Of a DNA stretch of 24,000 nucleotides, positions 4,753 through 19,385 are shown piece after piece (positions within the stretch are counted from its first letter, which is position 1; the number at the start of each line of letters is the position of its first letter). A model generated the notes under the pieces. That model ran no database searches, was not told the origin of the DNA, and saw only the letters and a program-made list of their open reading frames with translations. This DNA is from Crocinitomicaceae bacterium. Lineage in GTDB: Bacteria > Bacteroidota > Bacteroidia > Flavobacteriales_D > Crocinitomicaceae. The DNA is taken from contig JBBALI010000001.1 in assembly GCA_040403095.1 (NCBI GenBank), forward strand, positions 150,560 through 174,559. Reading direction: 5' to 3'. The translations under genes and the position numbers were made by a program.

Positions 4753-5412
4753 TTAAGCAAGGACCATTTCTGGAACAAATTCGGGCACAACCAAATCACC
4801 TTCAGTTTTGGAAATAATTTCTTCAACGGAAACACCTGGTGCTCTTTCAATTAAATGGAATTTTCCGTCTTTAATTTCCATTACAGCCAATTCGGTAACT
4901 ACTTTTTTAACACAACCAACACCCGTAAGCGGTAAAGTACATTCTTTCAAAATTTTAGATTCACCCGCTTTGTTACTGTGCATCATGGCAACAATGATGT
5001 TTTCTGCAGAGGCAACTAAATCCATAGCGCCACCCATTCCTTTCACCATTTTCCCAGGAATTTTCCAGTTAGCGATGTCTCCATTTTGAGAAACCTCCAT
5101 GGCACCCAGTACAGTTAATTGTACATGTTGACCTCGAATCATCGCAAATGACATAGCTGAATCAAAAAATGAAGCGCCTGCTGTTGTTGTGATCGTTTGT
5201 TTTCCTGCGTTGATTAAATCTGCATCTTCTTCGCCTTCGAATGGAAAAGGTCCCATGCCTAGCACGCCATTTTCAGATTGAAATTCAACTTCTATTCCTT
5301 CAGGAATATAGTTTGCAACCAAGGTTGGAATACCAATTCCTAAATTAACATACCAACCATCTCTCAACTCTTGAGCGATTCGTTTTGCGATTCCGATTTT
5401 ATCTAAAGCCAT
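4753..5412 (-). CDS. scoB: 3-oxoacid (succinyl-CoA:acetoacetate) CoA-transferase subunit B
   Basis: 219 aa with motifs YVNLGIGIPT and QSENGVLGMGP (the SENG catalytic-Glu motif) plus GAMDL. ATG start at 5412-5410. Confidence 0.9.
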   Translation of the reverse strand: MALDKIGIAKRIAQELRDGWYVNLGIGIPTLVANYIPEGIEVEFQSENGVLGMGPFPFEGEEDADLINAGKQTITTTAGASFFDSAMSFAMIRGQHVQLTVLGAMEVSQNGDIANWKIPGKMVKGMGGAMDLVASAENIIVAMMHSNKAGESKILKECTLPLTGVGCVKKVVTELAVMEIKDGKFHLIERAPGVSVEEIISKTEGDLVVPEFVPEMVLA

Positions 5413-5415
5413 TTT

Positions 5416-7212
5416 CTATTCTTTTAATTTGTAAAAATTTAATGTTCCATTTTTACAATTTATTCTACTATGTTGTGGATTCCAAATATACAATCTAAAT
5501 TCGATTTCTTCAGGATAAAAGCGTTTAAAAACTGAATTTATCTTCACTTTGAATTGACCCTGATTTGCACCATGAATCCATCTTTGATCGAAGGTTTCAT
5601 ACCGCACGGTTTCATTTTTTGAATTGAAAGTCGTGAATATTATCCTCACATCATGAAAAGGTGTTACAACCCTAAAATCACCAGCGAATTTGATTAATAA
5701 ATCTTCATTGCGCAATGAATCTAAACTTTTTAATTCCAATAAGTTGATATATTCTTCGGTAGATTCATTTGCTTCAATTTTCCAAGATTTAAAAATGTTT
5801 TTTTGATATGGTTTTAATCTCTTATAAGCCACAAAACCACTTGGTAAATCTTTGCAAAGCAATTGGTAATCTTTCAAATCTCGTGAATCAAGTTCTGAGG
5901 ATTTATTGACAATCACATCATACAATGGAGAAAACTCATTTAAAATATTGGGCTGGATCTTAACCTCATCGCTGGTTTGACGTTCTAATAAATCCCAATT
6001 CAAAGCCATTGTATGATAAACTGAAACAGTTGTAGATGTGTCAATTGATTTCTTTACTTGCTGATAAAAAGATGCATCCAACCGTTCGTCAGGGGTGAAA
6101 ACGGAAGTATTCAAATTCAATTGTAATATTGCCGTTATGGGAAAAAACAATAAAATCAATTGAATATATCGCCATTTAGGAAAATCATGGCTAAAAAATC
6201 CAACTAATAATATAATTAAAGGAATGAAATACATCCCCGCTCTGTCCTCTGGGTAATTGACTTTCATCAAAATCGCCAAGACAAAAATGGCAACAATATT
6301 GCCAAATAAAAACCATGACAAAATCGTTGTTTCTTTTACTACTTGATTCCAAAATCCGCGCTTAAAGAGCAAATAAATAAGCAATCCGAAAAACAATAGG
6401 AAGAGCAAAATGAAAAACCATTTCAACCATTCAGCATCGTAATAAAGCACATATTTGGAAAGTGTTTTACCTGTCACAATCCAAAATCCATCTAAACTTC
6501 CGTAATACAAAGCGCCATGTTCTTTCAATAATTGCCCAAAGGAAATAATTGGCAATAAGCAATAAATGAAACCAATGTGCACTATTAATAAAAACACATT
6601 TTTACCAACTGCAAATTCTCGAATGTTTTTCAAATGAATAATCAAAGCTAAAACGAGCGCCAAACAGGCAGAAACCAAAAAAACCAAATTCGAAAAAACT
6701 GCCAAAAAGCTGAAAACATAAAGAAGAATTAAACTTTTAGTTCTCGATTCTTTGACAAATCTTTGAGCAAAGACCAACATCCAAATGAAAAAGGAAATGG
6801 CCATGGCATAACCACGTGAATAAGAGAAATAATCGTTCATGTAAACGACCGTGACAGCCGCTGTGAGCAAGATTATTTGTGTAGACCGATTATCGATGGA
6901 TTTCAAAAAAGTATAAATTCCCCAAAAATAAATCGGGAAACAAAGCAGGCTTGGCAAACGAAAAAGAAAAAATTCATTTCCAAACAATGAATGAAGAAAA
7001 CTTCCTAAGAATGAATTAAATAAATGATTGTTTGCATCCAACATTACAGCATCACCAAACCATATTTCAGGTTCGATAAAGTGCAAAAAAGTAGCTGATT
7101 CATCGTGCAAAGGCGCCAAAAATATCGCGCGCAAAGTAAAATAAACCATCAAAAATGAAAAAAGTATCCAACTGTAATTTTTAAAGCTGAATACTTTTTT
7201 ATCTAATTTCAT
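5416..7212 (-). CDS. polytopic membrane glycosyltransferase-like protein (ArnT/PMT, GT-C type) with soluble C-terminal domain
   Basis: The first ATG is 7212-7210 (MKLDKKVFSF...), 10 nt after the scoA stop. The track start at 7296 is a TTG overlapping scoA by 74 nt. About 12 hydrophobic helices. The first loop, APLHDESATF, resembles the acidic D/E motif of ArnT/PMT-type enzymes. Polar C-terminal domain of about 200 aa. Confidence 0.6.
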   Translation of the reverse strand: MKLDKKVFSFKNYSWILFSFLMVYFTLRAIFLAPLHDESATFLHFIEPEIWFGDAVMLDANNHLFNSFLGSFLHSLFGNEFFLFRLPSLLCFPIYFWGIYTFLKSIDNRSTQIILLTAAVTVVYMNDYFSYSRGYAMAISFFIWMLVFAQRFVKESRTKSLILLYVFSFLAVFSNLVFLVSACLALVLALIIHLKNIREFAVGKNVFLLIVHIGFIYCLLPIISFGQLLKEHGALYYGSLDGFWIVTGKTLSKYVLYYDAEWLKWFFILLFLLFFGLLIYLLFKRGFWNQVVKETTILSWFLFGNIVAIFVLAILMKVNYPEDRAGMYFIPLIILLVGFFSHDFPKWRYIQLILLFFPITAILQLNLNTSVFTPDERLDASFYQQVKKSIDTSTTVSVYHTMALNWDLLERQTSDEVKIQPNILNEFSPLYDVIVNKSSELDSRDLKDYQLLCKDLPSGFVAYKRLKPYQKNIFKSWKIEANESTEEYINLLELKSLDSLRNEDLLIKFAGDFRVVTPFHDVRIIFTTFNSKNETVRYETFDQRWIHGANQGQFKVKINSVFKRFYPEEIEFRLYIWNPQHSRINCKNGTLNFYKLKE

Positions 7213-7222
7213 TGAAATATTT

Positions 7223-7921
7223 TTATGATTTTTGACGAACTGTTCTTTGCTCAATTCGCTTCTCAAATTTCTCTCCTTTGAAAATGCGTTGAACAAAAAT
7301 TCCAGGTGTATGAATCTGATTTGGATTTAATTCGCCCGCTGGAACCAATTCTTCTACCTCGGCAATCGTAATTTTTCCGGCCATGGCCATCATTGGATTG
7401 AAATTTCTAGCTGTAGCTTTGAAAACTAAATTCCCTTCTGTATCGCCTTTCCAAGCTTTGACAATCGCAAAATCTGCGGTCAATGCTGATTCTAAAATGT
7501 GCGGCTTTCCATTATAAATTCTCACTTCTTTTCCTTCTGCAACTTCAGTTCCGTAACCAGCAGGCGTAAAAAACGCTGGAATTCCAGCACCACCAGCACG
7601 ACATCTTTCTGCCAACGAACCTTGCGGAATTAAATCAACTTCCAATTCTCCTGACAACATTTGTCTTTCAAATTCATCGTTTTCTCCGACATAAGAACTG
7701 ATCATTTTTTTGACTTGTTTGTTTTGCAAAAGCAATCCCAAACCAAAATCATCAACTCCAGCATTGTTGGAAATACAAGTTAGATTTTTGACACCTATTT
7801 TAACCAATTCTGCAATAGAATTTTCAGGAATTCCACACAATCCAAAACCGCCAACCATCAAAGTCATATTGTCTTCAATTCCTTGACAAGCTTCTGAAAC
7901 ATTTTTTACTACTTTGTTCAT
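7223..7921 (-). CDS. scoA: 3-oxoacid CoA-transferase subunit A
   Basis: 232 aa with motifs [18 protein letters not shown] and [27 protein letters not shown] start. Confidence 0.9.
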
Positions 7922-10644: not shown

Positions 10645-10660
10645 AAATTCGTTTCACAAA
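10645..10660. promoter_or_regulatory. 16-bp direct repeat copy 2 (AAATTCGTTTCACAAA), abutting the AraC start codon
   Basis: Identical to 10540-10555. Its last base is the A of the AraC ATG at 10660. Confidence 0.4.
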
Positions 10661-11514
10661 TGGATTATATCTTCAAAAATAAAGACGGTTTTGGGCAGGT
10701 AAGATTATTTTCAAACAAAATAGACTTAGAGCAATATTATTTTGAGCAAAAATCGGGTTTTAGTTTTCATACAATTGCATGGAATAGAGGAAAAAATCAA
10801 ATTATTACAATCGACGAAGTCCAATATCATTTTGAAGAAAACACTGTGCTGCCTCTCATGCTGAATCAGTCTTTTAAGTTTGAAAATCCACAAGATATTG
10901 TTGCTTGGCAATTTAACCAAGAATTTTATTGCATAGCAAATCACGATGCGGAAGTTGGCTGCGTAGGCTTTATATTTTTTGGTCCATCTCCAACCATGTT
11001 TGTTTTTTTGGATGAAGAACAAAAAAGGAAAATGCAAAGTATTTTCGAGTTATTTGAGGAAGAATTTAATTCGGATGAAGATATCAAGGGAGAAATGCTA
11101 AGAATGCTACTTGTTCGACTGATTATTAATATCACAAGACTTGCAAAAAAACAATACCTAGGTAGCGAAGAAGTCGTAGAAGAAAAATTTAATTTAATTC
11201 GTCAATTTAATTTGTTGGTAGAAATTCATTTTAGAAAAGAACATCAAATTGCCTTTTATTCAGACTTATTAAATAAATCCTCAAAAACGATTTCAAATTA
11301 CTTTTCACTATACAGCAGTAAAACACCACTTCAAATAATTCAAAACAGAATCATCAGTGAAGCCAAACGATTATTTTATTATTCTGATAAATCAGTAAAA
11401 GAAATTGCTGATGAATTAGGGTTTGAAGACGCTGCACATTTTAGTAAATTCTTTAAAAAACATACTTCTTTGAGCCCTACTGAGCTTAAAAAAGCTACTC
11501 AAAACCCTATTTAG
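10660..11514 (+). CDS. AraC/XylS-family transcriptional regulator
   Basis: 284 aa. The C-terminal double HTH reads FYSDLLNKSSKTISNYF and IADELGFEDAAHFSKFFKKHTSLSPTELKK. The N-terminal domain is of the ligand-binding type. Confidence 0.85.
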   Translation: MDYIFKNKDGFGQVRLFSNKIDLEQYYFEQKSGFSFHTIAWNRGKNQIITIDEVQYHFEENTVLPLMLNQSFKFENPQDIVAWQFNQEFYCIANHDAEVGCVGFIFFGPSPTMFVFLDEEQKRKMQSIFELFEEEFNSDEDIKGEMLRMLLVRLIINITRLAKKQYLGSEEVVEEKFNLIRQFNLLVEIHFRKEHQIAFYSDLLNKSSKTISNYFSLYSSKTPLQIIQNRIISEAKRLFYYSDKSVKEIADELGFEDAAHFSKFFKKHTSLSPTELKKATQNPI

Positions 11515-11543
11515 GGAACAATCTACACATATTCGGGAACAAT
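11514..11543 (+). promoter_or_regulatory. direct repeat GGGAACAAT x2 with 21-bp period, candidate AraC-type operator
   Basis: GGGAACAAT occurs at 11514-11522 and 11535-11543. A G-rich 9-mer is unlikely by chance in this AT-rich spacer. Located between the AraC stop and the first operon gene. Confidence 0.35.
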
Positions 11544-11644: not shown

Positions 11645-12106
11645 ATGAAAAAATTCATTCTAACAGTAATTCTAATTGTTTTCGGTGTAGGTATAGCTAC
11701 TTCGCAAACCGCTTTAAGAAAAAAACACTTTAATATTGAAAAAGGAGTTGCAATTCAGGGATATGATCCTGTTGCTTATTTTATTTCAGGCAAAGCAATT
11801 TTAGGAAATAAAAGCTTGGCTGTTACAACAGAAGGAATCACCTATTATTTCTCCTCTCAAAAATACAAGGATTTTTTTCTAAAAAACCCAACAAAATTTG
11901 AACCACAATACGGTGGATGGTGTGCTTATGCGATGGGCGAGAATAATGAAAAAGTAGAAATTGACCCCGAAACTTTCAAAATTGTAGATGGTAAATTATA
12001 CTTGTTTTATCATTCTTGGACAAACAATACATTGACAAAATGGAATGAAAATCAAAAAACTTTAAAATCAAAAGCTGATAAAAATTGGTCAGTTATTTAC
12101 AAATAA
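11645..12106 (+). CDS. secreted YHS-domain protein (Cys form of the 'YHS domain (seleno)protein' type)
   Basis: 153 aa with a signal peptide (ILIVFGVGIATSQ). Motifs are GYDPVAYF, ITYYFSS..YKDFF..NP and PQYGGWCAYAM. Confidence 0.8.
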   Translation: MKKFILTVILIVFGVGIATSQTALRKKHFNIEKGVAIQGYDPVAYFISGKAILGNKSLAVTTEGITYYFSSQKYKDFFLKNPTKFEPQYGGWCAYAMGENNEKVEIDPETFKIVDGKLYLFYHSWTNNTLTKWNENQKTLKSKADKNWSVIYK

Positions 12107-12118
12107 AACCCAATCATT

Positions 12119-12523
12119 ATGAAATTAAAAACCATTGCATCTTGGATACTTAGGTTAGTCGCAGCATTAATTCTATTACAAACGCTTTACTTCAAATTTT
12201 CAGCGCATCCAGAATCGGTTGCTTTATTCACAAAACTAGGCGTTGAACCTTGGGGTAGAATTGGAACTGGCGTCCTAGAGCTAATCACTGCAATTTTACT
12301 AATTCTTCCAACTACGGTTTTTATAGGAGCATTTTTAGGGTCAGGCATAATGGGCGGAGCAATACTTTCTCACATTTCAATAATTGGCATTGAATCGAAA
12401 GGAGATGGCGGACAATTGTTTCTTCTAGCGATTCTTGTTCTTCTCTTTTGCACAACAATTTGCATCATGCATTGGAAACAAGGAATTTTAATTTATAATA
12501 AAATATTAAAAAGCAAAAAATGA
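12119..12523 (+). CDS. DoxX-family inner-membrane protein
   Basis: 134 aa with four hydrophobic helices and DoxX-like size and pattern. Its stop overlaps the next start (ATGA at 12520-12523). Confidence 0.65.
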   Translation: MKLKTIASWILRLVAALILLQTLYFKFSAHPESVALFTKLGVEPWGRIGTGVLELITAILLILPTTVFIGAFLGSGIMGGAILSHISIIGIESKGDGGQLFLLAILVLLFCTTICIMHWKQGILIYNKILKSKK

Positions 12524-13437
12524 AAATATATCTTTTCCTCTTATTTGCAATTTTAACTGCAAATGGATACGCACAGGGTTGCAGTGATGCTGGTTTTTGT
12601 ACTGTTGGAGATAACAATTCAAACGCAGAAGACACGTTAAAAGAATCGAAAAACAAATTAAGTCTATTGTTAACCAATAGCATAGGCGATCAAAACGTTT
12701 TTGTATTTACACCTGGCATTCAATATGAAATTGCATTAAATACTCATTTCACTTTGCAATCAAAAATCACTGGAAATTATGCATCAGGAGATTTAGGAAA
12801 AGCAACAGGTTTTGGAGATTTATTTATCTCTTCCGTTTATGAATTCAATACAAAAAAGAAAGTAAAACATACTTTTACCTTGGGAACAAAAATCCCATTG
12901 AATCTTGGAGATATTCGAAACGGTCAAAAACCATTGCCGATGCAATACCAAAGTAGCTTAGGTACATTCGATTTAATCCTTGGATATAAAATAAAATTCA
13001 AAAAAATATTCGCAAACCTTGCTTGGCAACAACCTCTGACAGGGAGAAATCGAAATACATTTTTGCCTCAATATTTGAATACTATTGAGGCTTTTAACTA
13101 TCCTCCAAGCAATGATTTCAATCGAAAAGGAGACGTTTTATTTCGTTTTGGATATCAATTTATTTCCAACACCAAATGGAAATGGAATTCCTCCATTCTT
13201 AGCATTTACCATCTCGGCGAGGATACCTACGTTGATGGGAACTTGAGTATTAATCCTATAAAAATTGCTGGTTCTGAAGGATTAACAGTAAATCTAACCA
13301 CAATGCTTTCCTGCAAAATAAATAAATCAATCACCATTGGTTTATCTGGTGGAGTGCCGTTGGTTGTCAGAAAAGTAAGACCCGATGGATTAACAAGGGC
13401 TTTTGCCTTAACCCCAGAATTGAATTTTAACTTTTAA
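12520..13437 (+). CDS. putative outer-membrane beta-barrel protein with N-terminal CxxxxxC
   Basis: 305 aa with a signal peptide ending ANGYAQ. The mature N-terminus is GCSDAGFCT. Alternating amphipathic beta-strand pattern, with a C-terminal ...ELNFNF ending in an aromatic residue, typical of OMPs. Confidence 0.55.
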   Translation: MKIYLFLLFAILTANGYAQGCSDAGFCTVGDNNSNAEDTLKESKNKLSLLLTNSIGDQNVFVFTPGIQYEIALNTHFTLQSKITGNYASGDLGKATGFGDLFISSVYEFNTKKKVKHTFTLGTKIPLNLGDIRNGQKPLPMQYQSSLGTFDLILGYKIKFKKIFANLAWQQPLTGRNRNTFLPQYLNTIEAFNYPPSNDFNRKGDVLFRFGYQFISNTKWKWNSSILSIYHLGEDTYVDGNLSINPIKIAGSEGLTVNLTTMLSCKINKSITIGLSGGVPLVVRKVRPDGLTRAFALTPELNFNF

Positions 13438-13449
13438 ACAACTACAATT

Positions 13450-13878
13450 ATGCGCTTTTTATTTTCCCTTTTGATTGTTGCTGGTTGTTTACTGGCCAAT
13501 TCTTGTAAAAAGAAAGAAAATTTTGCATCCACGCAAATTCTAAACGAAACAGTTAATACATCTGCAATTCTAAAATACAAAGGCACTTTTACCTCAGGCC
13601 CTTATGGAACAACGATTGGCACAGCAGAAATTTACTTGCAAGATTCCATTTATCTTTTAAAAATATCCAATTTCAATACCACGAATGGTCCAGCATTGCA
13701 TGTTTATTTGTCAAAAGAATCGATGCCAATCAATTACGTTGATTTAGGAAGTCTAAAATCTATCAATGGCAGTCATGTTTATGCGATTAACGGACAACTA
13801 GACTTTAGTCAGTACAAATTTATTTCTATCCACTGTGTCGAATACAATCATCTATTTGGATCAGCAATTTTAAATTAA
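13450..13878 (+). CDS. DM13-domain lipoprotein
   Basis: 142 aa. The signal ends in a lipobox-like LLANSC. The pattern GTFTSGPYG..G.AEIY...L.ISNF.T.NGPALHVYLSK...ISIHCVEYNHLFGSA matches the DM13 domain. Confidence 0.7.
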   Translation: MRFLFSLLIVAGCLLANSCKKKENFASTQILNETVNTSAILKYKGTFTSGPYGTTIGTAEIYLQDSIYLLKISNFNTTNGPALHVYLSKESMPINYVDLGSLKSINGSHVYAINGQLDFSQYKFISIHCVEYNHLFGSAILN

Positions 13879-13882
13879 AAAA

Positions 13883-14383
13883 ATGATTTTCAATCAATTA
13901 AAACAACAATTAAGTTCATTAGGCAATTTACTATTGCAATTAAATGACGAGCAATATTCCCAAAAAATTGCACATTTAGGAAGTGCAAGTATCGGTGGGC
14001 ACACTAGACATATTATTGAGCTATTAATTTGTGCAACAGATGGTTTTACATCTGGGACTGTTGATTACATCAATAGAACAAGAAATTTGACTTTGGAAAA
14101 TGATCGATTGTATGCAGAAATGGAAATTGCTAAACTGCAGGAAAATTTCAACAAACCGGACAAGCATTTAAATCTTGTTGTGGATGAATTGGAAGATACC
14201 TTTGGAACTCAAGTAACAACTACCTACTTCAGAGAAATTGTGTACAATACCGAACATGTTATTCATCATTTGGCTTTGATAAAAGTGGCCCTCATTGAGT
14301 TGAATTTAAATCTAGTAGATGACAATTTTGGAATGGCCTATTCGACCTTAAAATACAAAGCTTTAAAAATTAAAAACAATTGA
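13883..14383 (+). CDS. DinB-superfamily (DinB_2-like) metal-dependent protein
   Basis: 166 aa, helical. A candidate His triad lies in GGHTRHIIELL and NTEHVIHHLALIK. Confidence 0.55.
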   Translation: MIFNQLKQQLSSLGNLLLQLNDEQYSQKIAHLGSASIGGHTRHIIELLICATDGFTSGTVDYINRTRNLTLENDRLYAEMEIAKLQENFNKPDKHLNLVVDELEDTFGTQVTTTYFREIVYNTEHVIHHLALIKVALIELNLNLVDDNFGMAYSTLKYKALKIKNN

Positions 14384-14398
14384 TAAAAATTTAAAACC

Positions 14399-15148
14399 AT
14401 GTGCACTGTCGTATTTATTCCCGATGAAAACAAACAATACTTCGCATCATTAAGAGATGAAAGCCCTATCAGGCCTCAGGCAATTGTTCCAGCACTTTAT
14501 AAAACAAATGAAGCCAAATATTTGATGCCAAAAGATGCGCTTGCCGGAGGAACTTGGATTGGAATCAATGAATTTAAAAATGTGATTATTTTGCTAAATG
14601 GTGGATTTGAAAATCATAACAAAAAAGACTCTTACACTAAAAGTCGCGGGCAAATTGTTCATGAATTATTACAATCAATTATGCCGGTTGTAGATTGGCA
14701 ACTCATGGAATTAAATGATATTGAACCATTTACATTAGTGGTGTGGAGTGATAACCACTTATTTGAATTGGTTTGGGACGGTGCAACGAAACACAGAAAA
14801 GGCTTAGATTCATCAATCTTACATCTTTGGTCTTCTTCAACTCTGTATCAAAGTAAATTTAAAATAAAGAGAAGAGAACTTTTTATGCAATGGATTTCTG
14901 AAAAACCCTCTATTACAAAACATTCTGTGCTACATTTTTTTAAATCGAGGAATGATGCTGAGAATGGTTTCATAATAAACAGAAGCGCAAACATGAAAAC
15001 TTTAAGTTATTCATTTATAGAATTATCTGAAAATAATTTGGCACATTTTGATTATTTCGACTTACAAAATCAAAACCACACGCAAACAAGCATTGAATTG
15101 ATTGCAAAAACAAATAGCTGTCTATTGGAAAATCATTCTATTCACTAA
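14399..15148 (+). CDS. NRDE-family protein (bacterial TANGO2 homologue)
   Basis: 249 aa. Starts with MC (MCTVVFIP), as in Cys-Ntn-type folds. Contains an NRDE-like motif, SLRDESPIRP, then GGTWIG. Confidence 0.72.
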   Translation: MCTVVFIPDENKQYFASLRDESPIRPQAIVPALYKTNEAKYLMPKDALAGGTWIGINEFKNVIILLNGGFENHNKKDSYTKSRGQIVHELLQSIMPVVDWQLMELNDIEPFTLVVWSDNHLFELVWDGATKHRKGLDSSILHLWSSSTLYQSKFKIKRRELFMQWISEKPSITKHSVLHFFKSRNDAENGFIINRSANMKTLSYSFIELSENNLAHFDYFDLQNQNHTQTSIELIAKTNSCLLENHSIH

Positions 15149-15159
15149 AAATTTAAAAA

Positions 15160-15843
15160 ATGTCAATATTTAAATCAAAGCGCATACTGATAACAGCTGG
15201 ACCGACGCGGGAGGCTATTGATCCCGTTCGATATATCACCAATCATTCAACTGGTAAAATGGGATATGCACTTGCGTCTCATTTATTGAGCTTGGGAGCG
15301 GATGTTCGCGTCGTTTCTGGTCCTGTTTGTTTGAATCATCAATTTCCGAATGATAAAATTATCCAAATAGAATCTGCTGATGACATGCTAGCAGCTATGC
15401 AAAAAATAGCACACGAAGCAGATATTATAATTTTTGCAGCCGCAGTGGCTGATTATAAATGCGAGAAAATCGCTTATCAGAAAATAAAAAAGAAAGACCA
15501 AAGTATGTCAATTAGCCTTGTACCAAATCCTGATATCGCTTTGGAATTATCGAAATCAAAAAAGCAAAATCAAACGTTTATTGGGTTTGCTTTAGAAACT
15601 GAAAACGGTTTAGAAAATGCCAGGTCCAAAATGCAGCGAAAAGGATTTGATAGCATCATTTTAAATATTCACAATGAAAACGGAAGTGGTTTTGGACATG
15701 ACACGAATCGAATTCAAATAATAGACAGTGATTTCTCGATTACTGATTTTCCAATGAAACATAAATCACAAGTTGCCATTGATATAGTCAACCATCTTTC
15801 AAAAAAAATAATGTTTGAATCACTAGATTCAGAAATTGCTTAA
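15160..15843 (+). CDS. coaB: stand-alone CoaB-like phosphopantothenate--cysteine ligase domain protein (no CoaC flavoprotein domain)
   Basis: 227 aa. ILITAGPTREAIDPVRYITNHSTGKMGYALA, VSGPV, AAAVADY, LVPNPDI and GFALET align by eye along the whole CoaB half of E. coli CoaBC. Confidence 0.85.
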   Translation: MSIFKSKRILITAGPTREAIDPVRYITNHSTGKMGYALASHLLSLGADVRVVSGPVCLNHQFPNDKIIQIESADDMLAAMQKIAHEADIIIFAAAVADYKCEKIAYQKIKKKDQSMSISLVPNPDIALELSKSKKQNQTFIGFALETENGLENARSKMQRKGFDSIILNIHNENGSGFGHDTNRIQIIDSDFSITDFPMKHKSQVAIDIVNHLSKKIMFESLDSEIA

Positions 15844-15855
15844 GCCAAGAATTCC

Positions 15856-16911
15856 ATGGATAAATTAAAAATAAAATTGAAAAGGGCACGAATAAAAACA
15901 TTTAACTGGGAATATTGGCCGATGTGGCTGGTTTATTTTCCTGCTAGTTTTTACTTCTTGTACTTGGCTATAAAAGCGAGAAGTTTTTTCTTTTTCTCAG
16001 CATCCAATCCTACGATTGAAAATGGCGGAATGCTGTTTGAAAGCAAATGGAAAATTTTTAAACTTATCCCAAACGAACTTTTTCCAAACACGATTTACAT
16101 TGAGGAATTTGAAAATTTTGAATCAATAAAGGAAAAAGTCAAAGTAGCGAATCTATTGCTTCCACTAATTGCAAAACCAGACATTGGCGGCAGAGGATTT
16201 GGGGTAAAAAAAATACATTCAATGCTAGAACTTGAAAATTATCGAAACGCAGTAAAAGTGCCGTTTTTAATTCAAGAATGCGTGAATTATCCTTTAGAAT
16301 TAAGTGTTTTCTACTTTCGAAATCCCACGGAAAACAAAGGTCAAATCACTTCGGTAACATTCAAAGAGCTCCTAAATATCACTGGAGATGGTTATTCAAA
16401 AATAATTGATTTGATCAAAAAAAATGACAGGGCTTTTTTACAGTTTGAAAAATTGAAAAATGATCCAAAAATTGACATGAATGAAATCCTTCAAAAGGAT
16501 GAAAACCGGACTTTAGTTCCATACGGAAACCATGTTTTGGGTGCTAAATTTGTAAACTTCAATCATATCATTGACAATGAATTGACTGAAACATTTGATG
16601 CAATTAGTAAGCGAATTGATGGTTTCTATTTTGGAAGATATGACATTAGATGCACCAGTATTGAAGATTTAAAAAAAGGTAAAAACATTTCAATTCTTGA
16701 ATTAAATGGTTCAGGAGCTGAACCTGCGCACATTTACGATCCAAATTTTTCTTATTTCAAAGCACAAAAAGTATTGGCTAACTACTTTAAAAACATGTAC
16801 ATCGCATCTTTTGAAAACCATAAAAAGGGCACTTCATACATGAGCTATAAAGAGTTCAAATTGGTTAGAATACTAGAATCTGAGTATAAAAATAAAATTT
16901 CTCTGACATGA
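15856..16911 (+). CDS. ATP-grasp carboxylate-amine ligase with hydrophobic N-terminal segment
   Basis: 351 aa. The N-terminus is WEYWPMWLVYFPASFYFLYLAI. ATP-grasp signatures are IAKPDIGGRGFGVKKI and ILELNGSGAEPAHIYDP (E-x-N Mg site). The stop overlaps the next start (ATGA at 16908-16911). Confidence 0.7.
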   Translation: MDKLKIKLKRARIKTFNWEYWPMWLVYFPASFYFLYLAIKARSFFFFSASNPTIENGGMLFESKWKIFKLIPNELFPNTIYIEEFENFESIKEKVKVANLLLPLIAKPDIGGRGFGVKKIHSMLELENYRNAVKVPFLIQECVNYPLELSVFYFRNPTENKGQITSVTFKELLNITGDGYSKIIDLIKKNDRAFLQFEKLKNDPKIDMNEILQKDENRTLVPYGNHVLGAKFVNFNHIIDNELTETFDAISKRIDGFYFGRYDIRCTSIEDLKKGKNISILELNGSGAEPAHIYDPNFSYFKAQKVLANYFKNMYIASFENHKKGTSYMSYKEFKLVRILESEYKNKISLT

Positions 16912-17486
16912 TATTTTTTGGAATTTTAATTGGTTTTTATGGGTATTTATTTCCTGGAAACATCAACCTGATGGTGGTCGAAATCTACGCACAAAAAAAA
17001 TACCGTTTTTTAATCTTCACCCTCGTTTTGATTTTGGCGTTTGAAACAATTTATTGCTTGATGTCACTTCTTTTACTTGGAACATTTAAAAGCCACCCAA
17101 GCATTTTCACCTGGATCGAAGTAATTTCCTCATTAATGGTTTCTTTATTGGGGATTTGGATGATTTTTGAAAATAAAAATAACGCGCAAAAATCACAGAG
17201 AAATACGGTAGTTCGCGGAATTTTTTCCATTATTTTTCATCCACAACAAATACCATTTTGGGTAATAATGGGCGTATTTGTAAATCAATTTATTCAACTA
17301 AAAGCAAACAATTGGCCACTTTATCAATTTGCACTTTTAAATGCAGTAGGAACTTTTATCGCAATGGTTTTTTACATGATTTTTGGTTCAAAATTATTCA
17401 ACTATTTGCAATTAAATTTGAATCAAATTAATAAAATAATGGGTTCCATTTACCTTGTGGTTGGGTTTTATGGACTATTTAAATAA
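16908..17486 (+). CDS. LysE/RhtB-like small-molecule exporter
   Basis: 192 aa with about 6 hydrophobic helices. The N-terminal LFPGNINLMVV resembles the LysE-family PGP motif region. Confidence 0.5.
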   Translation: MIFFGILIGFYGYLFPGNINLMVVEIYAQKKYRFLIFTLVLILAFETIYCLMSLLLLGTFKSHPSIFTWIEVISSLMVSLLGIWMIFENKNNAQKSQRNTVVRGIFSIIFHPQQIPFWVIMGVFVNQFIQLKANNWPLYQFALLNAVGTFIAMVFYMIFGSKLFNYLQLNLNQINKIMGSIYLVVGFYGLFK

Positions 17487-17905
17487 ACAATTTCAGCAAC
17501 TAATCCTTTCAGGTTCTAAAACATAAAATTAAAATTTTAGCGTAAGAGCATCGATTAGTTAAATAAAAAATTTCTCCTGTTTGTTATTAAATTTATAACT
17601 TTGATAAAGGATGAAAATTGAAGAAAGCAAATTAAGGCAAATTCAAGAACTTTGTAAGATTAACAAGGTCAAATCACTATTTGCTTTTGGTTCCGTTTTG
17701 CGATCTGATTTTAATGACGCTTCAGATATCGATTTGATTGTTGATTTTGATGAAAAAGACCCCATTAAGTACTCTGATTTATACTTTAACTTAAAAGATA
17801 AATTAGAAACGATATTGACACGACACGTAGATTTACTTGAAGAAAGAGCAGTAAAAAACAAATTTTTCAGACAAGAACTAGATAGCACCAAAGTGAAAAT
17901 TTATG
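17262..17905 (+). repeat. segmental direct repeat, copy 1 (3' 225 nt of the exporter gene + intergenic + mntA up to the hepT ATG)
   Basis: Aligns with 18744-19385 at an offset of 1482 and then 1480. 17262-17713 is nearly identical (2 mismatches). 17714-17905 is about 9% diverged and includes indels. Confidence 0.9.
17596..17603 (+). promoter_or_regulatory. candidate -7 promoter box TAACTTTG for mntA-hepT
   Basis: Perfect TAnnTTTG only 7 nt upstream of the mntA ATG at 17611, implying a very short or absent leader. Duplicated at 19078-19085. Confidence 0.4.
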
Positions 17906-17913
17906 GATATTAA
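17611..17913 (+). CDS. mntA: MntA-type nucleotidyltransferase antitoxin (type VII TA)
   Basis: 100 aa with the minimal NTase motif FGSVLRSDF..ASDIDLIVDF (GS...DxD). Overlaps the downstream DUF86 gene by 11 nt. Confidence 0.85.
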   Translation: MKIEESKLRQIQELCKINKVKSLFAFGSVLRSDFNDASDIDLIVDFDEKDPIKYSDLYFNLKDKLETILTRHVDLLEERAVKNKFFRQELDSTKVKIYGY

Positions 17914-18241
17914 GATTAACGCTTGGCTACTTGACATTCAACAATGTATTGATGAAATATTGATTTTTAAGGGTGAAAACACTGATTTTTTGGCCTATAA
18001 ATCAGATTTAAAAACAAAAAAAGCAATCGAAAGAAACATTGAAATAATTGGGGAAGCAGTTAATAGAATATTGAAAGTTAACCCAGATTTTCAAATAAAA
18101 AACGCAAAGAATATTATTGGAACTCGAAATAGAATTATTCATAGTTATGATAATATCTCTGATGAAGTTATTTGGACCATTGTTCAGAGAGAATTACCTG
18201 ATTTAAAAATGCAAATTGAAAAATTGCTAAAACAAGAATAA
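17903..18241 (+). CDS. hepT: HepT-type (DUF86/HEPN) RNase toxin
   Basis: 112 aa. The HEPN Rx4HxY motif is present as RNRIIHSY. Shows the classic overlap with the upstream NTase gene. Confidence 0.85.
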   Translation: MDIKINAWLLDIQQCIDEILIFKGENTDFLAYKSDLKTKKAIERNIEIIGEAVNRILKVNPDFQIKNAKNIIGTRNRIIHSYDNISDEVIWTIVQRELPDLKMQIEKLLKQE

Positions 18242-18260: not shown

Positions 18261-18692
18261 ATGAAACTACTTTTCAAGCTTTTAATATTTACACTGTTCA
18301 TTTCTGGATGTTCAAACAAATTTAGTAAAACACCAGAAGAAAATTTCATTGGAATTTGGAAAATTGAGGGTAGAAGCATGTTTAATGGCATTCAAATAAA
18401 AATTGAAAAAGAAGACAAAGAATTTATTGGAAGAATTTTTAAACTCAACGACAATAAGTTAGTGCAGCTTTTTGCAGACTCTAATGACATTTGGGTTTCT
18501 GGGATTGAAAGAAAATCAAATTTTGAATTTGCTCTAACAGAAAAGAAAATTGCAAAAGATCTTTTTTCTCTTTACGGACTTTCCTCATCACAAGAATTTA
18601 AAGTTGAGTTTTTTAATAAAAATGCCTTTGGATTGGCGATTGAAAATTCTAAACCTCTAAACTCTAAAATTATTTATAGACGAATTCAATAA
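18261..18692 (+). CDS. hypothetical lipoprotein
   Basis: 143 aa. Signal peptide with a lipobox (LFISGC). No recognisable catalytic motif. Confidence 0.5.
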   Translation: MKLLFKLLIFTLFISGCSNKFSKTPEENFIGIWKIEGRSMFNGIQIKIEKEDKEFIGRIFKLNDNKLVQLFADSNDIWVSGIERKSNFEFALTEKKIAKDLFSLYGLSSSQEFKVEFFNKNAFGLAIENSKPLNSKIIYRRIQ

Positions 18693-18743
18693 GTAAATCT
18701 TAACTACTATTTTCCTAAAAAATTTCCATTCTCATTCCTTTAT

Positions 18744-18968
18744 GTGATAATGGGCGTATTTGTAAATCAATTTATTCAACTAAAAGCAAACAATTGGCCT
18801 CTTTATCAATTTGCACTTTTAAATGCAGTAGGAACTTTTATCGCAATGGTTTTTTACATGATTTTTGGTTCAAAATTATTCAACTATTTGCAATTAAATT
18901 TGAATCAAATTAATAAAATAATGGGTTCCATTTACCTTGTGGTTGGGTTTTATGGACTATTTAAATAA
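18744..18968 (+). pseudogene. 5'-truncated duplicate of the LysE-like exporter gene (last 74 codons only)
   Basis: Encodes the same 73 C-terminal residues as 17268-17486, with one synonymous change (17318 A versus 18800 T). The track 'start' is a GTG at the repeat boundary, and no upstream homology exists. Confidence 0.8.
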
Positions 18969-19385
18969 ACAATTTCAGCAACTAATCCTTTCAGGTTCTA
19001 AAACATAAAATTAAAATTTTAGCGTAAGAGCATCGATTAGTTAAATAAAAAATTTCTCCTGTTTGTTATTAAATTTATAACTTTGATAAAGGATGAAAAT
19101 TGAAGAAAGCAAATTAAGGCAAATTCAAGAACTTTGTAAGATTAACAAGGTCAAATCACTATTTGCTTTTGGTTCCGTTTTGCGATCTGATTTTATTGAC
19201 GCAGATATCGATTTGATTGTTGATTTTGATGAAAAGAACCCAATGTAAGTACACCGATTTATACTTTAACTTAAAAGAAAAATTAGAAACGATATTAACG
19301 CGCCACGTTGATTTACTTGAAGAAAGAGCAGTAAAAAACAAATTTTTTAGACAAGAACTAGATAATACCAAAGTTAAAATTTATG
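18744..19385 (+). repeat. segmental direct repeat, copy 2
   Basis: See copy 1. Homology begins abruptly at 18744 and ends at the ATG at 19383-19385. Confidence 0.9.

What the first reader, a model, noticed from the sequence alone, without database searches (positions are those of the whole stretch)
14399..15843. Bacterial TANGO2 (NRDE) homologue placed 11 bp upstream of a CoaB-like ligase
Seen: the NRDE-family ORF (MCTVVFIP..., SLRDE motif) ends at 15148 and the CoaB-like ORF starts at 15160 on the same strand. Established: the biochemical role of the TANGO2/NRDE family is unresolved. Work on human and fly TANGO2 deficiency links it to CoA/acyl-CoA metabolism (pantothenate supplementation helps, and acyl-CoA binding is reported). 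A heme-handling role has also been proposed. Inference: a conserved operonic link between NRDE and an enzyme of the phosphopantothenate-cysteine step would be independent genomic evidence for a pantetheine/CoA-related substrate. The N-terminal Cys suggests an Ntn-type amidase acting on such an amide.
Basis: partly seen in the sequence, partly recalled or inferred. Interest (0 to 1): 0.65.

Follow-up and report, generated by a model that had tools for sequence, protein, structure and literature searches.

The report
TANGO2-like gene in a stress operon
A bacterial relative of the human disease protein TANGO2 does sit 11 bp upstream of a CoaB-type cysteine ligase here, but across bacteria its steady partners are a DinB-like metalloenzyme and an ATP-grasp ligase (sometimes fused to it), while the CoaB gene is an occasional add-on.

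Summary
A 249-aa NRDE/TANGO2 ORF (14399-15148) lies 11 bp upstream of a 227-aa stand-alone CoaB-domain ORF (15160-15843). Both belong to a tightly packed nine-gene run downstream of an AraC regulator.

I examined 80 species-level loci that encode relatives of this NRDE protein:
- 72 have a DinB-like gene just upstream.
- 71 have a 351-aa ATP-grasp ligase downstream.
- 5 have the stand-alone CoaB-like gene.
- 5 have canonical CoaBC nearby, 4 of them directly after the ligase.

The ATP-grasp/DinB/NRDE trio, in Vibrio and Photobacterium with YHS and DoxX genes as well, recurs in Vibrionaceae in a different gene order and without CoaB. NRDE::ATP-grasp fusion proteins exist, for example in Pedobacter.

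The CoaB-like protein belongs to an old, monophyletic paralogue clade. It keeps 45 of the 53 aligned CoaB positions that are at least 90% conserved in canonical CoaB domains. It also occurs in YHS-type redox clusters that lack NRDE. None of 76 control CoaBC loci had NRDE nearby.

A CoA or cysteinyl-amide link is therefore recurrent but accessory. The better lead to TANGO2 biochemistry is the undescribed DinB/NRDE/ATP-grasp module, which sits in a thiol, metal and oxidative-stress gene context.

The parts
10660..11514 (+). AraC-family transcriptional regulator, likely controller of the downstream operon
   Evidence: PF12833 HTH_18, E 3.6e-19. A homologue lies upstream of the cluster in 33 of 80 related loci.
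11515..11542 (+). Operator-like direct repeat GGAACAATcTACAcatattcGGGAACAA, between the AraC stop codon and the YHS gene
   Evidence: Read. A similar GGAAnAAT-N12-GGGAACnA repeat lies between the AraC and YHS genes in at least 13 related loci. Binding by the regulator is inferred.
11645..12106 (+). Exported YHS-domain (seleno)protein-family protein; this copy has Cys in the GGWCAYA motif
   Evidence: NCBIfam NF041384, E 5e-39. N-terminal signal-like hydrophobic segment. Present in 65 of 80 loci and in the Vibrio and Photobacterium clusters.
12119..12523 (+). DoxX_2 family membrane protein
   Evidence: PF13564, E 1.4e-8. Present in 72 of 80 loci. Weak homologues in the Vibrio and Photobacterium clusters.
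12520..13437 (+). 305-aa secreted protein with an N-terminal CxxxxxC motif; no family match (possibly an outer-membrane protein)
   Evidence: No Pfam or NCBIfam hit. Present in 25 of 80 loci.
13450..13878 (+). DM13-domain lipoprotein-like protein
   Evidence: PF10517, E 1.9e-13. Present in 20 of 80 loci.
13883..14383 (+). DinB-like protein with a conserved histidine cluster; the most constant upstream partner of NRDE
   Evidence: PF12867 DinB_2, E 0.0014, below the cutoff. H40, H43, H125, H128 and H129 are invariant in 18 homologues, including Vibrionaceae. It lies just upstream of NRDE in 72 of 80 loci. The homologue next to NRDE in Salinivibrio is 26% identical.
14399..15148 (+). NRDE/TANGO2-family protein, predicted Cys-Ntn amidohydrolase or acyltransferase
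   Evidence: PF05742, E 9.3e-13. Invariant M1-C2-T3, R19-D20-E21, N67 and S82-R83-G84 across phyla. AlphaFold pLDDT 90.5. Foldseek top hits are 8sv7 TANGO2 (TM 0.71), 3gvz, 2x1d and bile-salt hydrolases.
15160..15843 (+). Stand-alone CoaB-domain ligase, a paralogue of phosphopantothenate-cysteine ligase with no CoaC half
   Evidence: PF04127, E 5.8e-68. Matches PDB 5int (E 3e-45) and E. coli CoaB 1u7u (E 1.3e-36). It keeps 45 of the 53 aligned CoaB positions that are at least 90% conserved in 67 canonical CoaB domains. It falls in a monophyletic stand-alone clade.
15856..16911 (+). 351-aa ATP-grasp carboxylate-amine ligase with N-terminal hydrophobic helices; the conserved downstream partner of NRDE
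   Evidence: Profile search against PDB: 8fxh and 7ta5, E about 2e-6. AlphaFold pLDDT 87. Foldseek top hits are cyanophycin synthetases, GshF and Ddl. Downstream of NRDE in 71 of 80 loci. Fused to NRDE in P0282 and P0318. The Salinivibrio homologue is 31% identical.
16908..17486 (+). 192-aa multi-pass membrane protein with no family match; its start overlaps the ATP-grasp stop by 4 bp
   Evidence: No significant Pfam or NCBIfam hit. Follows the ATP-grasp gene in 33 of 80 loci.

Best explanation
The NRDE gene and the CoaB-like gene are two members of one AraC-controlled operon (about 11645-17486). The order is YHS, DoxX, a 305-aa secreted protein, DM13, DinB-like, NRDE, CoaB-like, ATP-grasp ligase, membrane protein.

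The functional core is the cytoplasmic trio DinB-like / NRDE / ATP-grasp ligase, which works with the exported or membrane YHS and DoxX proteins.

Proposed mechanism (inferred):
- The operon is induced by thiol, metal or oxidative stress.
- The membrane-anchored ATP-grasp enzyme builds an amide bond on a small carboxylate or amino-acid metabolite.
- The Cys2 nucleophile of NRDE, exposed by removal of Met1, cleaves or transfers an acyl or aminoacyl group of that same metabolite through a thioester intermediate.
- The histidine-cluster DinB-like enzyme carries out metal-assisted thiol chemistry on it.

The stand-alone CoaB is an ancient paralogue of phosphopantothenate-cysteine ligase that some Bacteroidota lineages have recruited into this and related YHS clusters. 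It keeps the full CTP-dependent cysteine-ligase machinery. It most likely raises or diverts synthesis of 4'-phosphopantothenoylcysteine, and hence CoA or pantetheine thiol, or of a close cysteinyl-amide analogue, when the operon is switched on. It is an accessory supplier. It is not the defining partner of NRDE.
For: Operon architecture:
- Gaps between successive genes from YHS to the 192-aa protein range from -4 to +15 bp.
- An operator-like repeat after the AraC gene is conserved in related loci.

Conservation in Bacteroidota: of 80 loci, DinB upstream in 72, ATP-grasp downstream in 71, both in 65, YHS in 65, DoxX in 72, stand-alone CoaB-like in 5, CoaBC in 5.

Conservation across phyla:
- Vibrio and Photobacterium carry ATP-grasp, DinB, NRDE, YHS and DoxX in that order. 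Salinivibrio carries ATP-grasp, DinB and NRDE.
- The same 13-nt DinB/NRDE overlap is seen in Salinivibrio, the Emticicia plasmid and Pedobacter.

Fusion proteins: NRDE::ATP-grasp in Pedobacter sp. Hv1 (WP_055131527.1) and in a second cluster of 4 members.

Enzyme character:
- The proposed catalytic residues of NRDE (by alignment to human TANGO2) are invariant, and the predicted fold is Ntn-like.
- The 351-aa protein has an ATP-grasp fold close to cyanophycin synthetase and GshF.
- The DinB-like histidines are invariant.

Stress context in related loci: thioredoxins, DsbD, AhpC and CMD. Peroxiredoxin, thioredoxin, an FAD oxidoreductase and a GDCCVxC (seleno)protein. MsrB and DUF1223. An ECF sigma factor with a Cys-rich anti-sigma factor in 21-23 loci.

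CoaB-like protein:
- It keeps 45 of the 53 aligned CoaB positions that are at least 90% conserved in canonical CoaB domains.
- It forms a monophyletic clade separate from canonical CoaBC, including Chitinophagales CoaBC.
- It is found inside or beside these clusters in several different arrangements.
- No NRDE, DinB-like or ATP-grasp (351-aa) gene was found in 76 control CoaBC loci.
Against: - No substrate is known for any of the three core enzymes. 'Thiol/redox stress' is read from neighbouring gene families, not from data on this organism.
- The DinB assignment is below the Pfam cutoff, and no solved relative was found.
- No promoter or terminator signal above the shuffled background, and no expression data.
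- I could not check whether genomes with the stand-alone CoaB also carry canonical CoaBC, so a housekeeping role is not excluded.
- The stand-alone CoaB differs from canonical domains at a few family-specific positions (N123, A127, F92, R17), so a different acyl substrate remains possible.
- The 80 loci are the nearest relatives of the query and are mostly Chitinophagales. The counts are therefore not phylogenetically independent.
Confidence: 0.5

Rival explanations
1. NRDE is an Ntn amidase whose substrate is a pantothenate-derived amide such as phosphopantothenoylcysteine, pantetheine or (acyl-)CoA. The CoaB adjacency reports that substrate directly.
For: - The CoaB function is linked to the module in at least two architectures: a stand-alone paralogue directly after NRDE (window, L008, L011, L012, L021, L030, L167, L169), and canonical CoaBC overlapping the ATP-grasp stop in L072, L076 and L085 and adjacent in L010.
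- Chance would put a single-copy gene within 10 kb in roughly 0.3 of 80 loci (my estimate).
- Control CoaBC loci have no NRDE.
- Human TANGO2 binds CoA and acyl-CoA, and vitamin B5 helps patients (PMC11867700; PMC13044924).
- The closest enzyme of known function by fold uses acyl-CoA (2x1d).
Against: - About 88% of Bacteroidota modules and all 5 Vibrionaceae modules lack any CoaB gene.
- The nearest species-level relative (L007, 68% identity) goes straight from NRDE to the ATP-grasp gene.
- The stand-alone CoaB clade occurs without NRDE in other YHS clusters.
- The fusion partner of NRDE is the ATP-grasp ligase, not CoaB.
Confidence: 0.15
2. A lipid-amide or acyl-CoA model. NRDE is an acyl-CoA-dependent N-acyltransferase, or a hydrolase of N-acyl amides on membrane-associated lipids or lipo-amino acids. 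The membrane-anchored ATP-grasp enzyme adds the amino-acid head group. Any CoA link runs through the acyl donor.
For: - Fold neighbours include isopenicillin N acyltransferase, bile-salt hydrolases and penicillin V acylase.
- Human TANGO2 has been proposed to use fatty-acid derivatives and to bind acyl-CoA (PMC13044924, PMC11867700).
- The ATP-grasp protein has N-terminal hydrophobic helices.
- Small membrane proteins (192 aa, 194 aa) and an alpha/beta hydrolase are frequent in the cluster.
Against: - No lipid-biosynthesis genes are conserved in the module.
- The conserved neighbours are redox and metal families: YHS, DoxX, DM13, DinB, thioredoxins, MsrB.
- NRDE has many invariant arginines (R19, R25, R83, R158), which suggests an anionic, polar substrate. 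That reading is inference.
Confidence: 0.15
3. A heme-trafficking model. The NRDE protein is a heme chaperone like Shewanella HtpA, delivering heme to envelope redox proteins of the operon. The CoaB adjacency is irrelevant.
For: - Bacterial TANGO2 homologues were reported to bind heme and to aid cytochrome c maturation (PMC10470608).
- The operon encodes envelope electron-transfer-type proteins (DM13, DoxX). The related CoaB-like clusters that lack NRDE carry HbpS-like genes.
Against: - Heme binding by human TANGO2 was found to be nonspecific in crystals (PMC13044924) and has been challenged in vivo (PMC12782551).
- Strict invariance of an N-terminal Cys, RDE and Asn across phyla points to catalysis.
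- So does the fusion to an ATP-dependent ligase.
- No cytochrome c maturation or heme synthesis genes lie in the module.
Confidence: 0.07
4. Hitch-hiking. The CoaB-like gene is simply the organism's housekeeping or spare phosphopantothenate-cysteine ligase that happens to lie in this operon, with no functional relation to the cluster.
For: - It keeps essentially all canonical catalytic residues and is 45-50% identical to authentic PPCS enzymes.
- Most modules do without it.
Against: - The stand-alone clade is old, monophyletic and distinct from Bacteroidota CoaBC.
- All 18 examined contexts of the stand-alone gene that hold more than about 3 kb of flanking DNA carry at least one cluster family (YHS, DinB-like or NRDE).
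- No CoaC partner is present in the window.
- It is usually translationally coupled to a cluster-specific 194-aa membrane protein.
Confidence: 0.1

Closest known systems
Human TANGO2 (PDB 8sv7, 9bwa), Chromobacterium CV2077 (3gvz) and Shewanella HtpA: the NRDE family, Pfam PF05742
   Same: Pfam membership. N-terminal Met-Cys. The RDE motif and the LLN asparagine align with human R26-D27-E28 and N75. The predicted fold matches at TM about 0.7.
   Different: About 15% sequence identity to the human protein. The motif is S-L-RDE here rather than NRDE. This subfamily is embedded in a DinB/ATP-grasp/YHS/DoxX operon and is sometimes fused to the ligase. Nothing comparable turned up for the eukaryotic or Shewanella proteins in the papers I searched.
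Cys-Ntn hydrolases and acyltransferases: acyl-CoA:isopenicillin N acyltransferase (2x1d), bile-salt hydrolase, penicillin V acylase
   Same: Predicted alpha-beta-beta-alpha fold, with the nucleophilic Cys at the mature N-terminus.
   Different: No propeptide, so the Cys would be exposed by Met removal rather than by autoproteolysis. 9-13% identity. Substrate unknown.
CoaB domain of bifunctional CoaBC (E. coli Dfp, 1u7u/1u7z) and stand-alone PPCS (5int; TIGR02114 type)
   Same: Motifs GPTRE-IDPVR-I-N-S-GKMG, AAVADY, KIKK, ET and DTN are all present. 45 of the 53 aligned CoaB positions that are at least 90% conserved in canonical domains are retained.
   Different: No CoaC half. It scores below the equivalog cutoffs of all three NCBIfam CoaB/CoaBC models. 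It forms a separate monophyletic clade. It lives in stress and redox clusters rather than in a housekeeping context. Family-specific residues are N123, A127 and F92.
ATP-grasp peptide ligases: the cyanophycin synthetase G domain, CphA2, the C-terminal half of GshF, and Ddl
   Same: ATP-grasp fold. Best sequence and structure matches.
   Different: The usual N-terminal substrate domain is replaced by hydrophobic helices. No Pfam family reaches its gathering cutoff. It is a single-domain protein of about 350 aa paired or fused with NRDE.
Thiol pathways that combine a DinB-fold enzyme, an amide ligase and an amidase: ergothioneine EgtA/EgtB/EgtC, and mycothiol or bacillithiol S-transferase plus Mca/Bca amidase. 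This is an analogy from my own knowledge, not a test.
   Same: The same three kinds of activity (DinB-fold metal-dependent thiol enzyme, ATP-dependent amide ligase, N-terminal-Cys or other amidase) work on one cysteine-containing metabolite. The gene context is also redox.
   Different: No sequence relationship was shown between these proteins and Egt, Mca or Bsh enzymes. The DinB protein here is a stand-alone 166-aa protein. The metabolite is unknown.

Membership tests
NRDE / TANGO2 (Pfam PF05742) | Profile HMM score above the Pfam gathering threshold | tested here: met
   49.3 bits against a cutoff of 22.6, E 9.3e-13, residues 1-182.
NRDE / TANGO2 (Pfam PF05742) | N-terminal Cys2, the (N)RDE motif and the downstream Asn that are proposed as catalytic in human TANGO2 | tested here: met
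   C2, R19-D20-E21 and N67 are invariant in 49 and in 7 cross-phylum sequences. They align with human R26-D27-E28 and N75. The first motif residue is Leu here rather than Asn.
NRDE / TANGO2 (Pfam PF05742) | alpha-beta-beta-alpha fold like the solved TANGO2 structures | tested here: met
   AlphaFold pLDDT 90.5. Foldseek 8sv7 E 1.3e-8, TM 0.71; 3gvz TM 0.69. This is a predicted structure only.
Cys-Ntn hydrolase superfamily | Amide hydrolysis or acyl transfer through the N-terminal cysteine | not testable with these tools
   Needs purified wild-type and C2A protein and candidate substrates.
Phosphopantothenate-cysteine ligase (CoaB; PF04127, TIGR00521, TIGR02114, NF005231) | DFP C-terminal domain profile above the Pfam threshold | tested here: met
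   228.8 bits against a cutoff of 22, covering 185 of 186 profile positions.
Phosphopantothenate-cysteine ligase (CoaB; PF04127, TIGR00521, TIGR02114, NF005231) | Score above an NCBIfam equivalog cutoff (bifunctional CoaBC or stand-alone CoaB) | tested here: not met
   TIGR00521 205.9 against 219.7 (only the CoaB half matches). NF005231 80 against 265. TIGR02114 73.3 against 217.2.
Phosphopantothenate-cysteine ligase (CoaB; PF04127, TIGR00521, TIGR02114, NF005231) | Conserved nucleotide-binding and catalytic residues of canonical CoaB domains | tested here: met
   45 of the 53 aligned CoaB positions that are at least 90% conserved in 67 canonical domains are the same and at least 90% conserved in 114 stand-alone proteins. 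These include N28 (aligning with E. coli N210, from memory) and the K108-x-K110 motif.
Phosphopantothenate-cysteine ligase (CoaB; PF04127, TIGR00521, TIGR02114, NF005231) | Orthology with housekeeping CoaB (same clade, with a CoaC partner) | tested here: not met
   The stand-alone proteins form their own clade in a neighbour-joining tree, apart from canonical CoaBC including Chitinophagales CoaBC (no bootstrap). No CoaC or flavoprotein domain in the window.
Phosphopantothenate-cysteine ligase (CoaB; PF04127, TIGR00521, TIGR02114, NF005231) | CTP-dependent ligation of cysteine to 4'-phosphopantothenate | not testable with these tools
   Needs an enzyme assay or complementation of a coaB-deficient strain.
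ATP-grasp carboxylate-amine ligases | ATP-grasp fold with a conserved nucleotide and Mg site | tested here: met
   Profile against PDB: 8fxh and 7ta5, E about 2e-6. Foldseek: cyanophycin synthetase E 2e-9, then GshF and Ddl. K107, E282 and N284 are invariant. No Pfam model reaches its gathering score.
DinB superfamily (PF12867 DinB_2) | Profile score above the threshold, and a metal-binding histidine triad | tested here: inconclusive
   19.5 bits against a cutoff of 24.8, and no PDB relative by profile. However, H40, H43, H125, H128 and H129 are invariant, and the homologues in Salinivibrio and Emticicia are annotated as DinB family by NCBI.

The most novel reading that the evidence does not exclude
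The ancestral, conserved job of the NRDE/TANGO2 family is to act as the N-terminal-cysteine amidase or transacylase partner of a dedicated ATP-grasp ligase and a DinB-type metalloenzyme. Together they form a stress-induced pathway that builds, edits or recycles a cysteine-containing amide metabolite. That metabolite may be a pantothenoylcysteine- or pantetheine-like thiol, which would explain the recurrent recruitment of CoaB and CoaBC. If so, the bacterial operon would give TANGO2 a defined reaction and a genetic system in which to find its substrate.
Probability: 0.15. Interest if true: 0.85.

Novelty: new variant of a known kind. Interest (0 to 1): 0.6.

Why it matters
The biochemical function of TANGO2 is disputed. 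Heme trafficking, acyl-CoA binding and Ntn hydrolase activity have all been proposed, and its loss causes a severe human metabolic disease.

This locus does not deliver the hoped-for clean NRDE-CoaB rule. It does expose a cross-phylum module (DinB-like, NRDE and ATP-grasp ligase, with YHS and DoxX), including natural NRDE::ligase fusions, that I could not find described in the literature I searched. The module names specific partner enzymes and a likely physiological setting of thiol, metal and oxidative stress. It occurs in culturable bacteria such as Pedobacter, Emticicia, Vibrio and Salinivibrio, where knockouts and thiol metabolomics could identify the substrate.

The work also defines a distinct clade of stand-alone CoaB paralogues tied to redox clusters. 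That clade is of interest for CoA and low-molecular-weight-thiol biology in Bacteroidota.

Tried and rejected
- The 49-sequence NRDE alignment (A1) was too diverse for the locus scan. I replaced it with the 14-sequence alignment A2.
- The metagenome scan with the stand-alone CoaB alignment was swamped by canonical CoaBC: only 3 of the 80 loci returned carried a stand-alone gene. I could not use it as the intended reverse survey, so I used it as a negative control. I did the reverse survey with eight encoding-contig look-ups instead.
- The A2 profile against PDB at E <= 0.01 found nothing. The broader A1 profile found TANGO2 at E 0.0018.
- The DinB-like profile against PDB gave only noise.
- The promoter and terminator consensus scans were no better than shuffles, so they give no evidence for or against co-transcription.
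- The Emticicia 'DUF6695' protein downstream of NRDE is not a homologue of the ATP-grasp protein.
- The 194-aa membrane protein, the 248-aa HELAH protein and the 192-aa membrane protein are mutually unrelated.
- Literature searches for an NRDE gene-neighbourhood, DinB, ATP-grasp, YHS or DoxX description returned nothing relevant.
- I considered the idea that the stand-alone CoaB is a recent split or duplicate of the cluster-adjacent CoaBC. I rejected it on the tree.
Full report
**1. The observation**

The window holds an ATG ORF at 14399-15148 (+, 249 aa, MCTVVFIPDENKQYFASLRDE...) and an ATG ORF at 15160-15843 (+, 227 aa). They are 11 bp apart.
- The first ORF matches Pfam PF05742 TANGO2 (49.3 bits, cutoff 22.6).
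- The second matches PF04127, the CoaB (DFP C-terminal) domain (228.8 bits). It aligns with positions 184-391 of the bifunctional CoaBC model TIGR00521, so it is a CoaB half without a CoaC half.
- Both have thousands of homologues.

**2. Local anatomy**

The two genes lie inside a run of co-directional genes with gaps of -4 to +15 bp:

| Coordinates | Product |
|---|---|
| 11645-12106 | YHS-domain (seleno)protein family |
| 12119-12523 | DoxX_2 |
| 12520-13437 | 305-aa secreted protein |
| 13450-13878 | DM13 |
| 13883-14383 | DinB-like |
| 14399-15148 | NRDE |
| 15160-15843 | CoaB-like |
| 15856-16911 | 351-aa protein |
| 16908-17486 | 192-aa membrane protein |

An AraC-family gene (10660-11514) precedes the run. 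Directly after the AraC stop lies a direct repeat, GGAACAATcTACAcatattcGGGAACAA. A similar repeat occupies the same position in at least 13 related loci, which suggests an operator. The consensus promoter and terminator scans did not exceed shuffled sequence. Co-transcription is therefore inferred from spacing and conservation only. The window contains no CoaC or CoaBC gene.

**3. What the proteins are**

NRDE:
- M1-C2-T3, R19-D20-E21, N67, S82-R83-G84 and several other positions are invariant in 49 Bacteroidota sequences. They remain invariant when Vibrionaceae homologues of about 25% identity are added.
- A profile search aligns R19-D20-E21 and N67 with human TANGO2 R26-D27-E28 and N75.
- An AlphaFold model (pLDDT 90.5) best matches human TANGO2 (TM 0.71). 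Next come the bacterial NRDE protein CV2077, acyl-CoA:isopenicillin N acyltransferase, bile-salt hydrolases and penicillin V acylase.
- The Cys-Ntn reading is therefore reasonable. It has already been proposed for human TANGO2 from its crystal structure (PMC13044924).

The 351-aa protein:
- It has no Pfam family above threshold.
- A profile of 25 homologues hits CphA2-type ATP-grasp proteins, cyanophycin synthetase and GshF.
- A confident model (pLDDT 87) matches cyanophycin synthetases, GshF and D-Ala-D-Ala ligases.
- It is an ATP-grasp carboxylate-amine ligase whose usual N-terminal domain is replaced by hydrophobic helices.

The DinB-like protein scores below the Pfam cutoff, but five histidines are invariant.

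The CoaB-like protein:
- It matches authentic PPCS structures (5int E 3e-45; E. coli CoaB E 1.3e-36).
- It keeps 45 of the 53 aligned CoaB positions that are at least 90% conserved in 67 canonical CoaB domains.

**4. Is the NRDE-CoaB link conserved?**

I scanned one genome per GTDB species with an NRDE alignment. The scan found at least 576 relatives. I analysed the best 80 loci, which are mostly Chitinophagales with some Cytophagales, Flavobacteriales and Sphingobacteriales. Homology searches with the window's proteins, plus de novo clustering of all neighbouring ORFs, gave these counts:

| Feature | Loci (of 80) |
|---|---|
| DinB-like just upstream | 72 |
| 351-aa ATP-grasp ligase downstream | 71 (immediately next in 49) |
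| Both | 65 |
| YHS | 65 |
| DoxX | 72 |
| Stand-alone CoaB-like between NRDE and the ligase | 5 (L008, L011, L012 truncated, L021, L030) |
| Canonical ~400-aa CoaBC nearby | 5 |

Of the five CoaBC cases, CoaBC overlaps the ligase stop in L072, L076 and L085, which form one clade. It follows the ligase after 79 nt in L010, which belongs to another clade. In L045 it lies about 5 kb downstream of the ligase gene.

The nearest species-level relative (L007, 68% identity) has NRDE, the ligase and the 192-aa protein in a row, with no CoaB gene.

**5. Cross-phylum evidence and fusions**

A tblastn search of plasmid and chromid records found NRDE homologues in Vibrionaceae.
- Salinivibrio carries ATP-grasp ligase, DinB-like and NRDE in that order.
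- Vibrio and Photobacterium carry ATP-grasp ligase, DinB-like, NRDE, YHS and DoxX in that order.
- The ligase is 31% identical to the window's over its full length, and the DinB-like protein is 26% identical.
- No CoaB gene is present.

Two representative proteins of about 596 aa are NRDE fused to the ligase. They are real. One is WP_055131527.1 of the Pedobacter sp. Hv1 isolate genome, with a second independent copy. The other is a cluster of four members on five contigs. The Pedobacter locus reads ECF sigma/anti-sigma, YHS, DoxX, DinB-like, NRDE::ligase, DUF1223, MsrB.

The defining partners of this NRDE subfamily are therefore the DinB-like protein and the ATP-grasp ligase.

**6. What the stand-alone CoaB is**

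In a neighbour-joining tree, 39 stand-alone CoaB-like proteins form one clade. That clade is separate from 35 canonical CoaB domains, including those of the Chitinophagales CoaBC genes found next to the module (no bootstrap). The gene is therefore an old paralogue, not a recent split.

Genomic contexts of the stand-alone gene, from eight encoding-contig look-ups plus the loci found in the two collection scans:
- Inside the module directly after NRDE: the window, L008, L011, L012, L021, L030, L167 and L169.
- Upstream of DinB-NRDE: L091.
- 2.7 kb from NRDE and the ligase, among DsbD, thioredoxins, AhpC and CMD: L004.
- In a YHS-YHS-DinB cluster without NRDE: L002.
- Near a YHS gene and directly followed by an AraC-family gene, on a 10-kb contig with no NRDE: L087.
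- For a second subclade, in a different conserved cluster with no NRDE: two YHS proteins, HbpS-like, SGL, SDR, ferric-reductase/Rieske, S8 peptidase, glyoxalase and MIP.

In most module instances the gene is followed, with an 8-nt overlap, by a 194-aa multi-pass membrane protein. That protein is absent from the window.

As a control, 76 canonical CoaBC loci from metagenomes had no NRDE, DinB-like or ATP-grasp (351-aa) gene within the retrieved flanks.

CoaB-type function is thus recurrently recruited to these redox clusters. It follows the YHS-type cluster more faithfully than it follows NRDE.

**7. Interpretation**

Shown computationally:
- The operon-like architecture.
- The conserved module, within Bacteroidota and across phyla.
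- The NRDE::ligase fusions.
- The paralogue status and the intact catalytic residues of the CoaB-like protein.

Inferred:
- The module responds to thiol, metal or oxidative stress. The neighbours in related loci include thioredoxins, peroxiredoxin, DsbD, CMD/AhpD-like proteins, MsrB, a GDCCVxC (seleno)protein, an FAD oxidoreductase and an ECF sigma factor with a Cys-rich anti-sigma factor.
- The ligase and NRDE make and then cleave or transfer an amide on one small metabolite.
- The DinB-like enzyme performs metal-assisted thiol chemistry on that metabolite.
- The CoaB paralogue supplies a cysteinyl amide, either phosphopantothenoylcysteine feeding CoA or a close analogue, in the lineages that carry it.

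The resemblance to pathways that combine a DinB-fold enzyme, an amide ligase and an amidase (ergothioneine EgtA/B/C; mycothiol or bacillithiol transferase plus amidase) is an analogy from general knowledge. It is not a tested relationship.

**8.

- The adjacency is real and is not confined to one genome.
- CoaB or CoaBC is linked to the module in at least two architectures, more often than chance would give.
- However, it is present in only about 12% of Bacteroidota modules and in none of the Vibrionaceae modules.
- It therefore cannot serve as a general indicator of the NRDE substrate.

A pantothenate-derived substrate remains possible; I put that rival at about 0.15. Heme trafficking (PMC10470608) fits poorly with the invariant catalytic-type residues and with the fusion to a ligase.

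**9. Novelty**

I found no description of this module in the searchable literature. Each protein belongs to a known superfamily. What is new is the combination, the fusion and the stand-alone CoaB clade. I rate the finding as a new variant of known kinds. Interest is moderately high because it makes the TANGO2 question testable in bacteria.

**10. Limits**

- The 80 loci are the closest relatives of the query and are not phylogenetically independent.
- More distant NRDE subfamilies were sampled only through the plasmid collection.
- I could not inspect whole genomes for a co-resident CoaBC.
- The tree has no support values.
- All functions are predictions.

Noticed in passing
window 17257-17556 and 18739-19038: A 300-nt direct repeat (99% identical) duplicates the 3' end of the 192-aa membrane-protein gene. 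It brackets an MntA-like nucleotidyltransferase / HepT toxin-antitoxin pair (17611-18241) and a 143-aa lipoprotein gene (18261-18692). This looks like an insertion with duplication of the target, or an assembly artefact.
   Followed up: partly
window 11515-11542; L009, L018, L023, L029, L040, L044, L046, L054, L056, L059, L066, L074 and other loci, upstream of YHS: A conserved direct repeat, GGAAnAAT-N12-GGGAACnA, lies between the AraC-family gene and the first operon gene. It is a candidate operator of the AraC regulator.
   Followed up: partly
P0282 (Pedobacter sp. Hv1, WP_055131527.1; locus L179 8001-9794) and P0318: Natural fusion proteins of about 596 aa join NRDE (N-terminal) to the ATP-grasp ligase (C-terminal). 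In Pedobacter the fusion is flanked by DinB-like (13-nt overlap), DoxX and YHS upstream and by DUF1223 and MsrB downstream.
   Followed up: yes
L168, L170, L171, L172 (stand-alone CoaB-like, second subclade): A different conserved cluster surrounds this CoaB-like subclade: YHS, a 320-335-aa double-YHS protein, HbpS-like, SGL, SDR, CoaB-like, a 248-aa secreted HELAH metalloprotease-like protein, ferric-reductase/Rieske, S8 peptidase, glyoxalase and MIP. There is no NRDE.
   Followed up: partly
L002 8683-9267, L167 8698-9279, L169 8710-9294, and 17 of the 80 NRDE loci: A 194-aa multi-pass membrane protein with no family match usually follows the stand-alone CoaB-like gene with an 8-nt overlap. 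In 10 loci it follows NRDE directly without CoaB. It is absent from the window.
   Followed up: partly
L004 8709-8924; L174 5712-5918 (Emticicia oligotrophica plasmid pEMTOL01): Small Cys-rich GDCCVxC-type proteins occur next to the CoaB-like gene in Sediminibacterium and in the Emticicia plasmid NRDE cluster. The plasmid cluster also carries peroxiredoxin, thioredoxin and an FAD oxidoreductase, which hints at metal or thiol handling.
   Followed up: no
window 4753-5412, 5416-7296 and 7223-7921 (minus strand): The two CoA-transferase subunit genes (PF01144) are separated by a large membrane-protein gene of about 600 aa with a weak PMT_2 match. That is an unusual arrangement for a two-subunit enzyme.
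   Followed up: no
23 of the 80 NRDE loci, e.g. L011 16953-17797; L179 5140-6014: An ECF sigma factor and an ~85-aa Cys-rich (CxxCC) putative anti-sigma factor recur beside the module. This suggests a second, redox-sensing layer of regulation.
   Followed up: no
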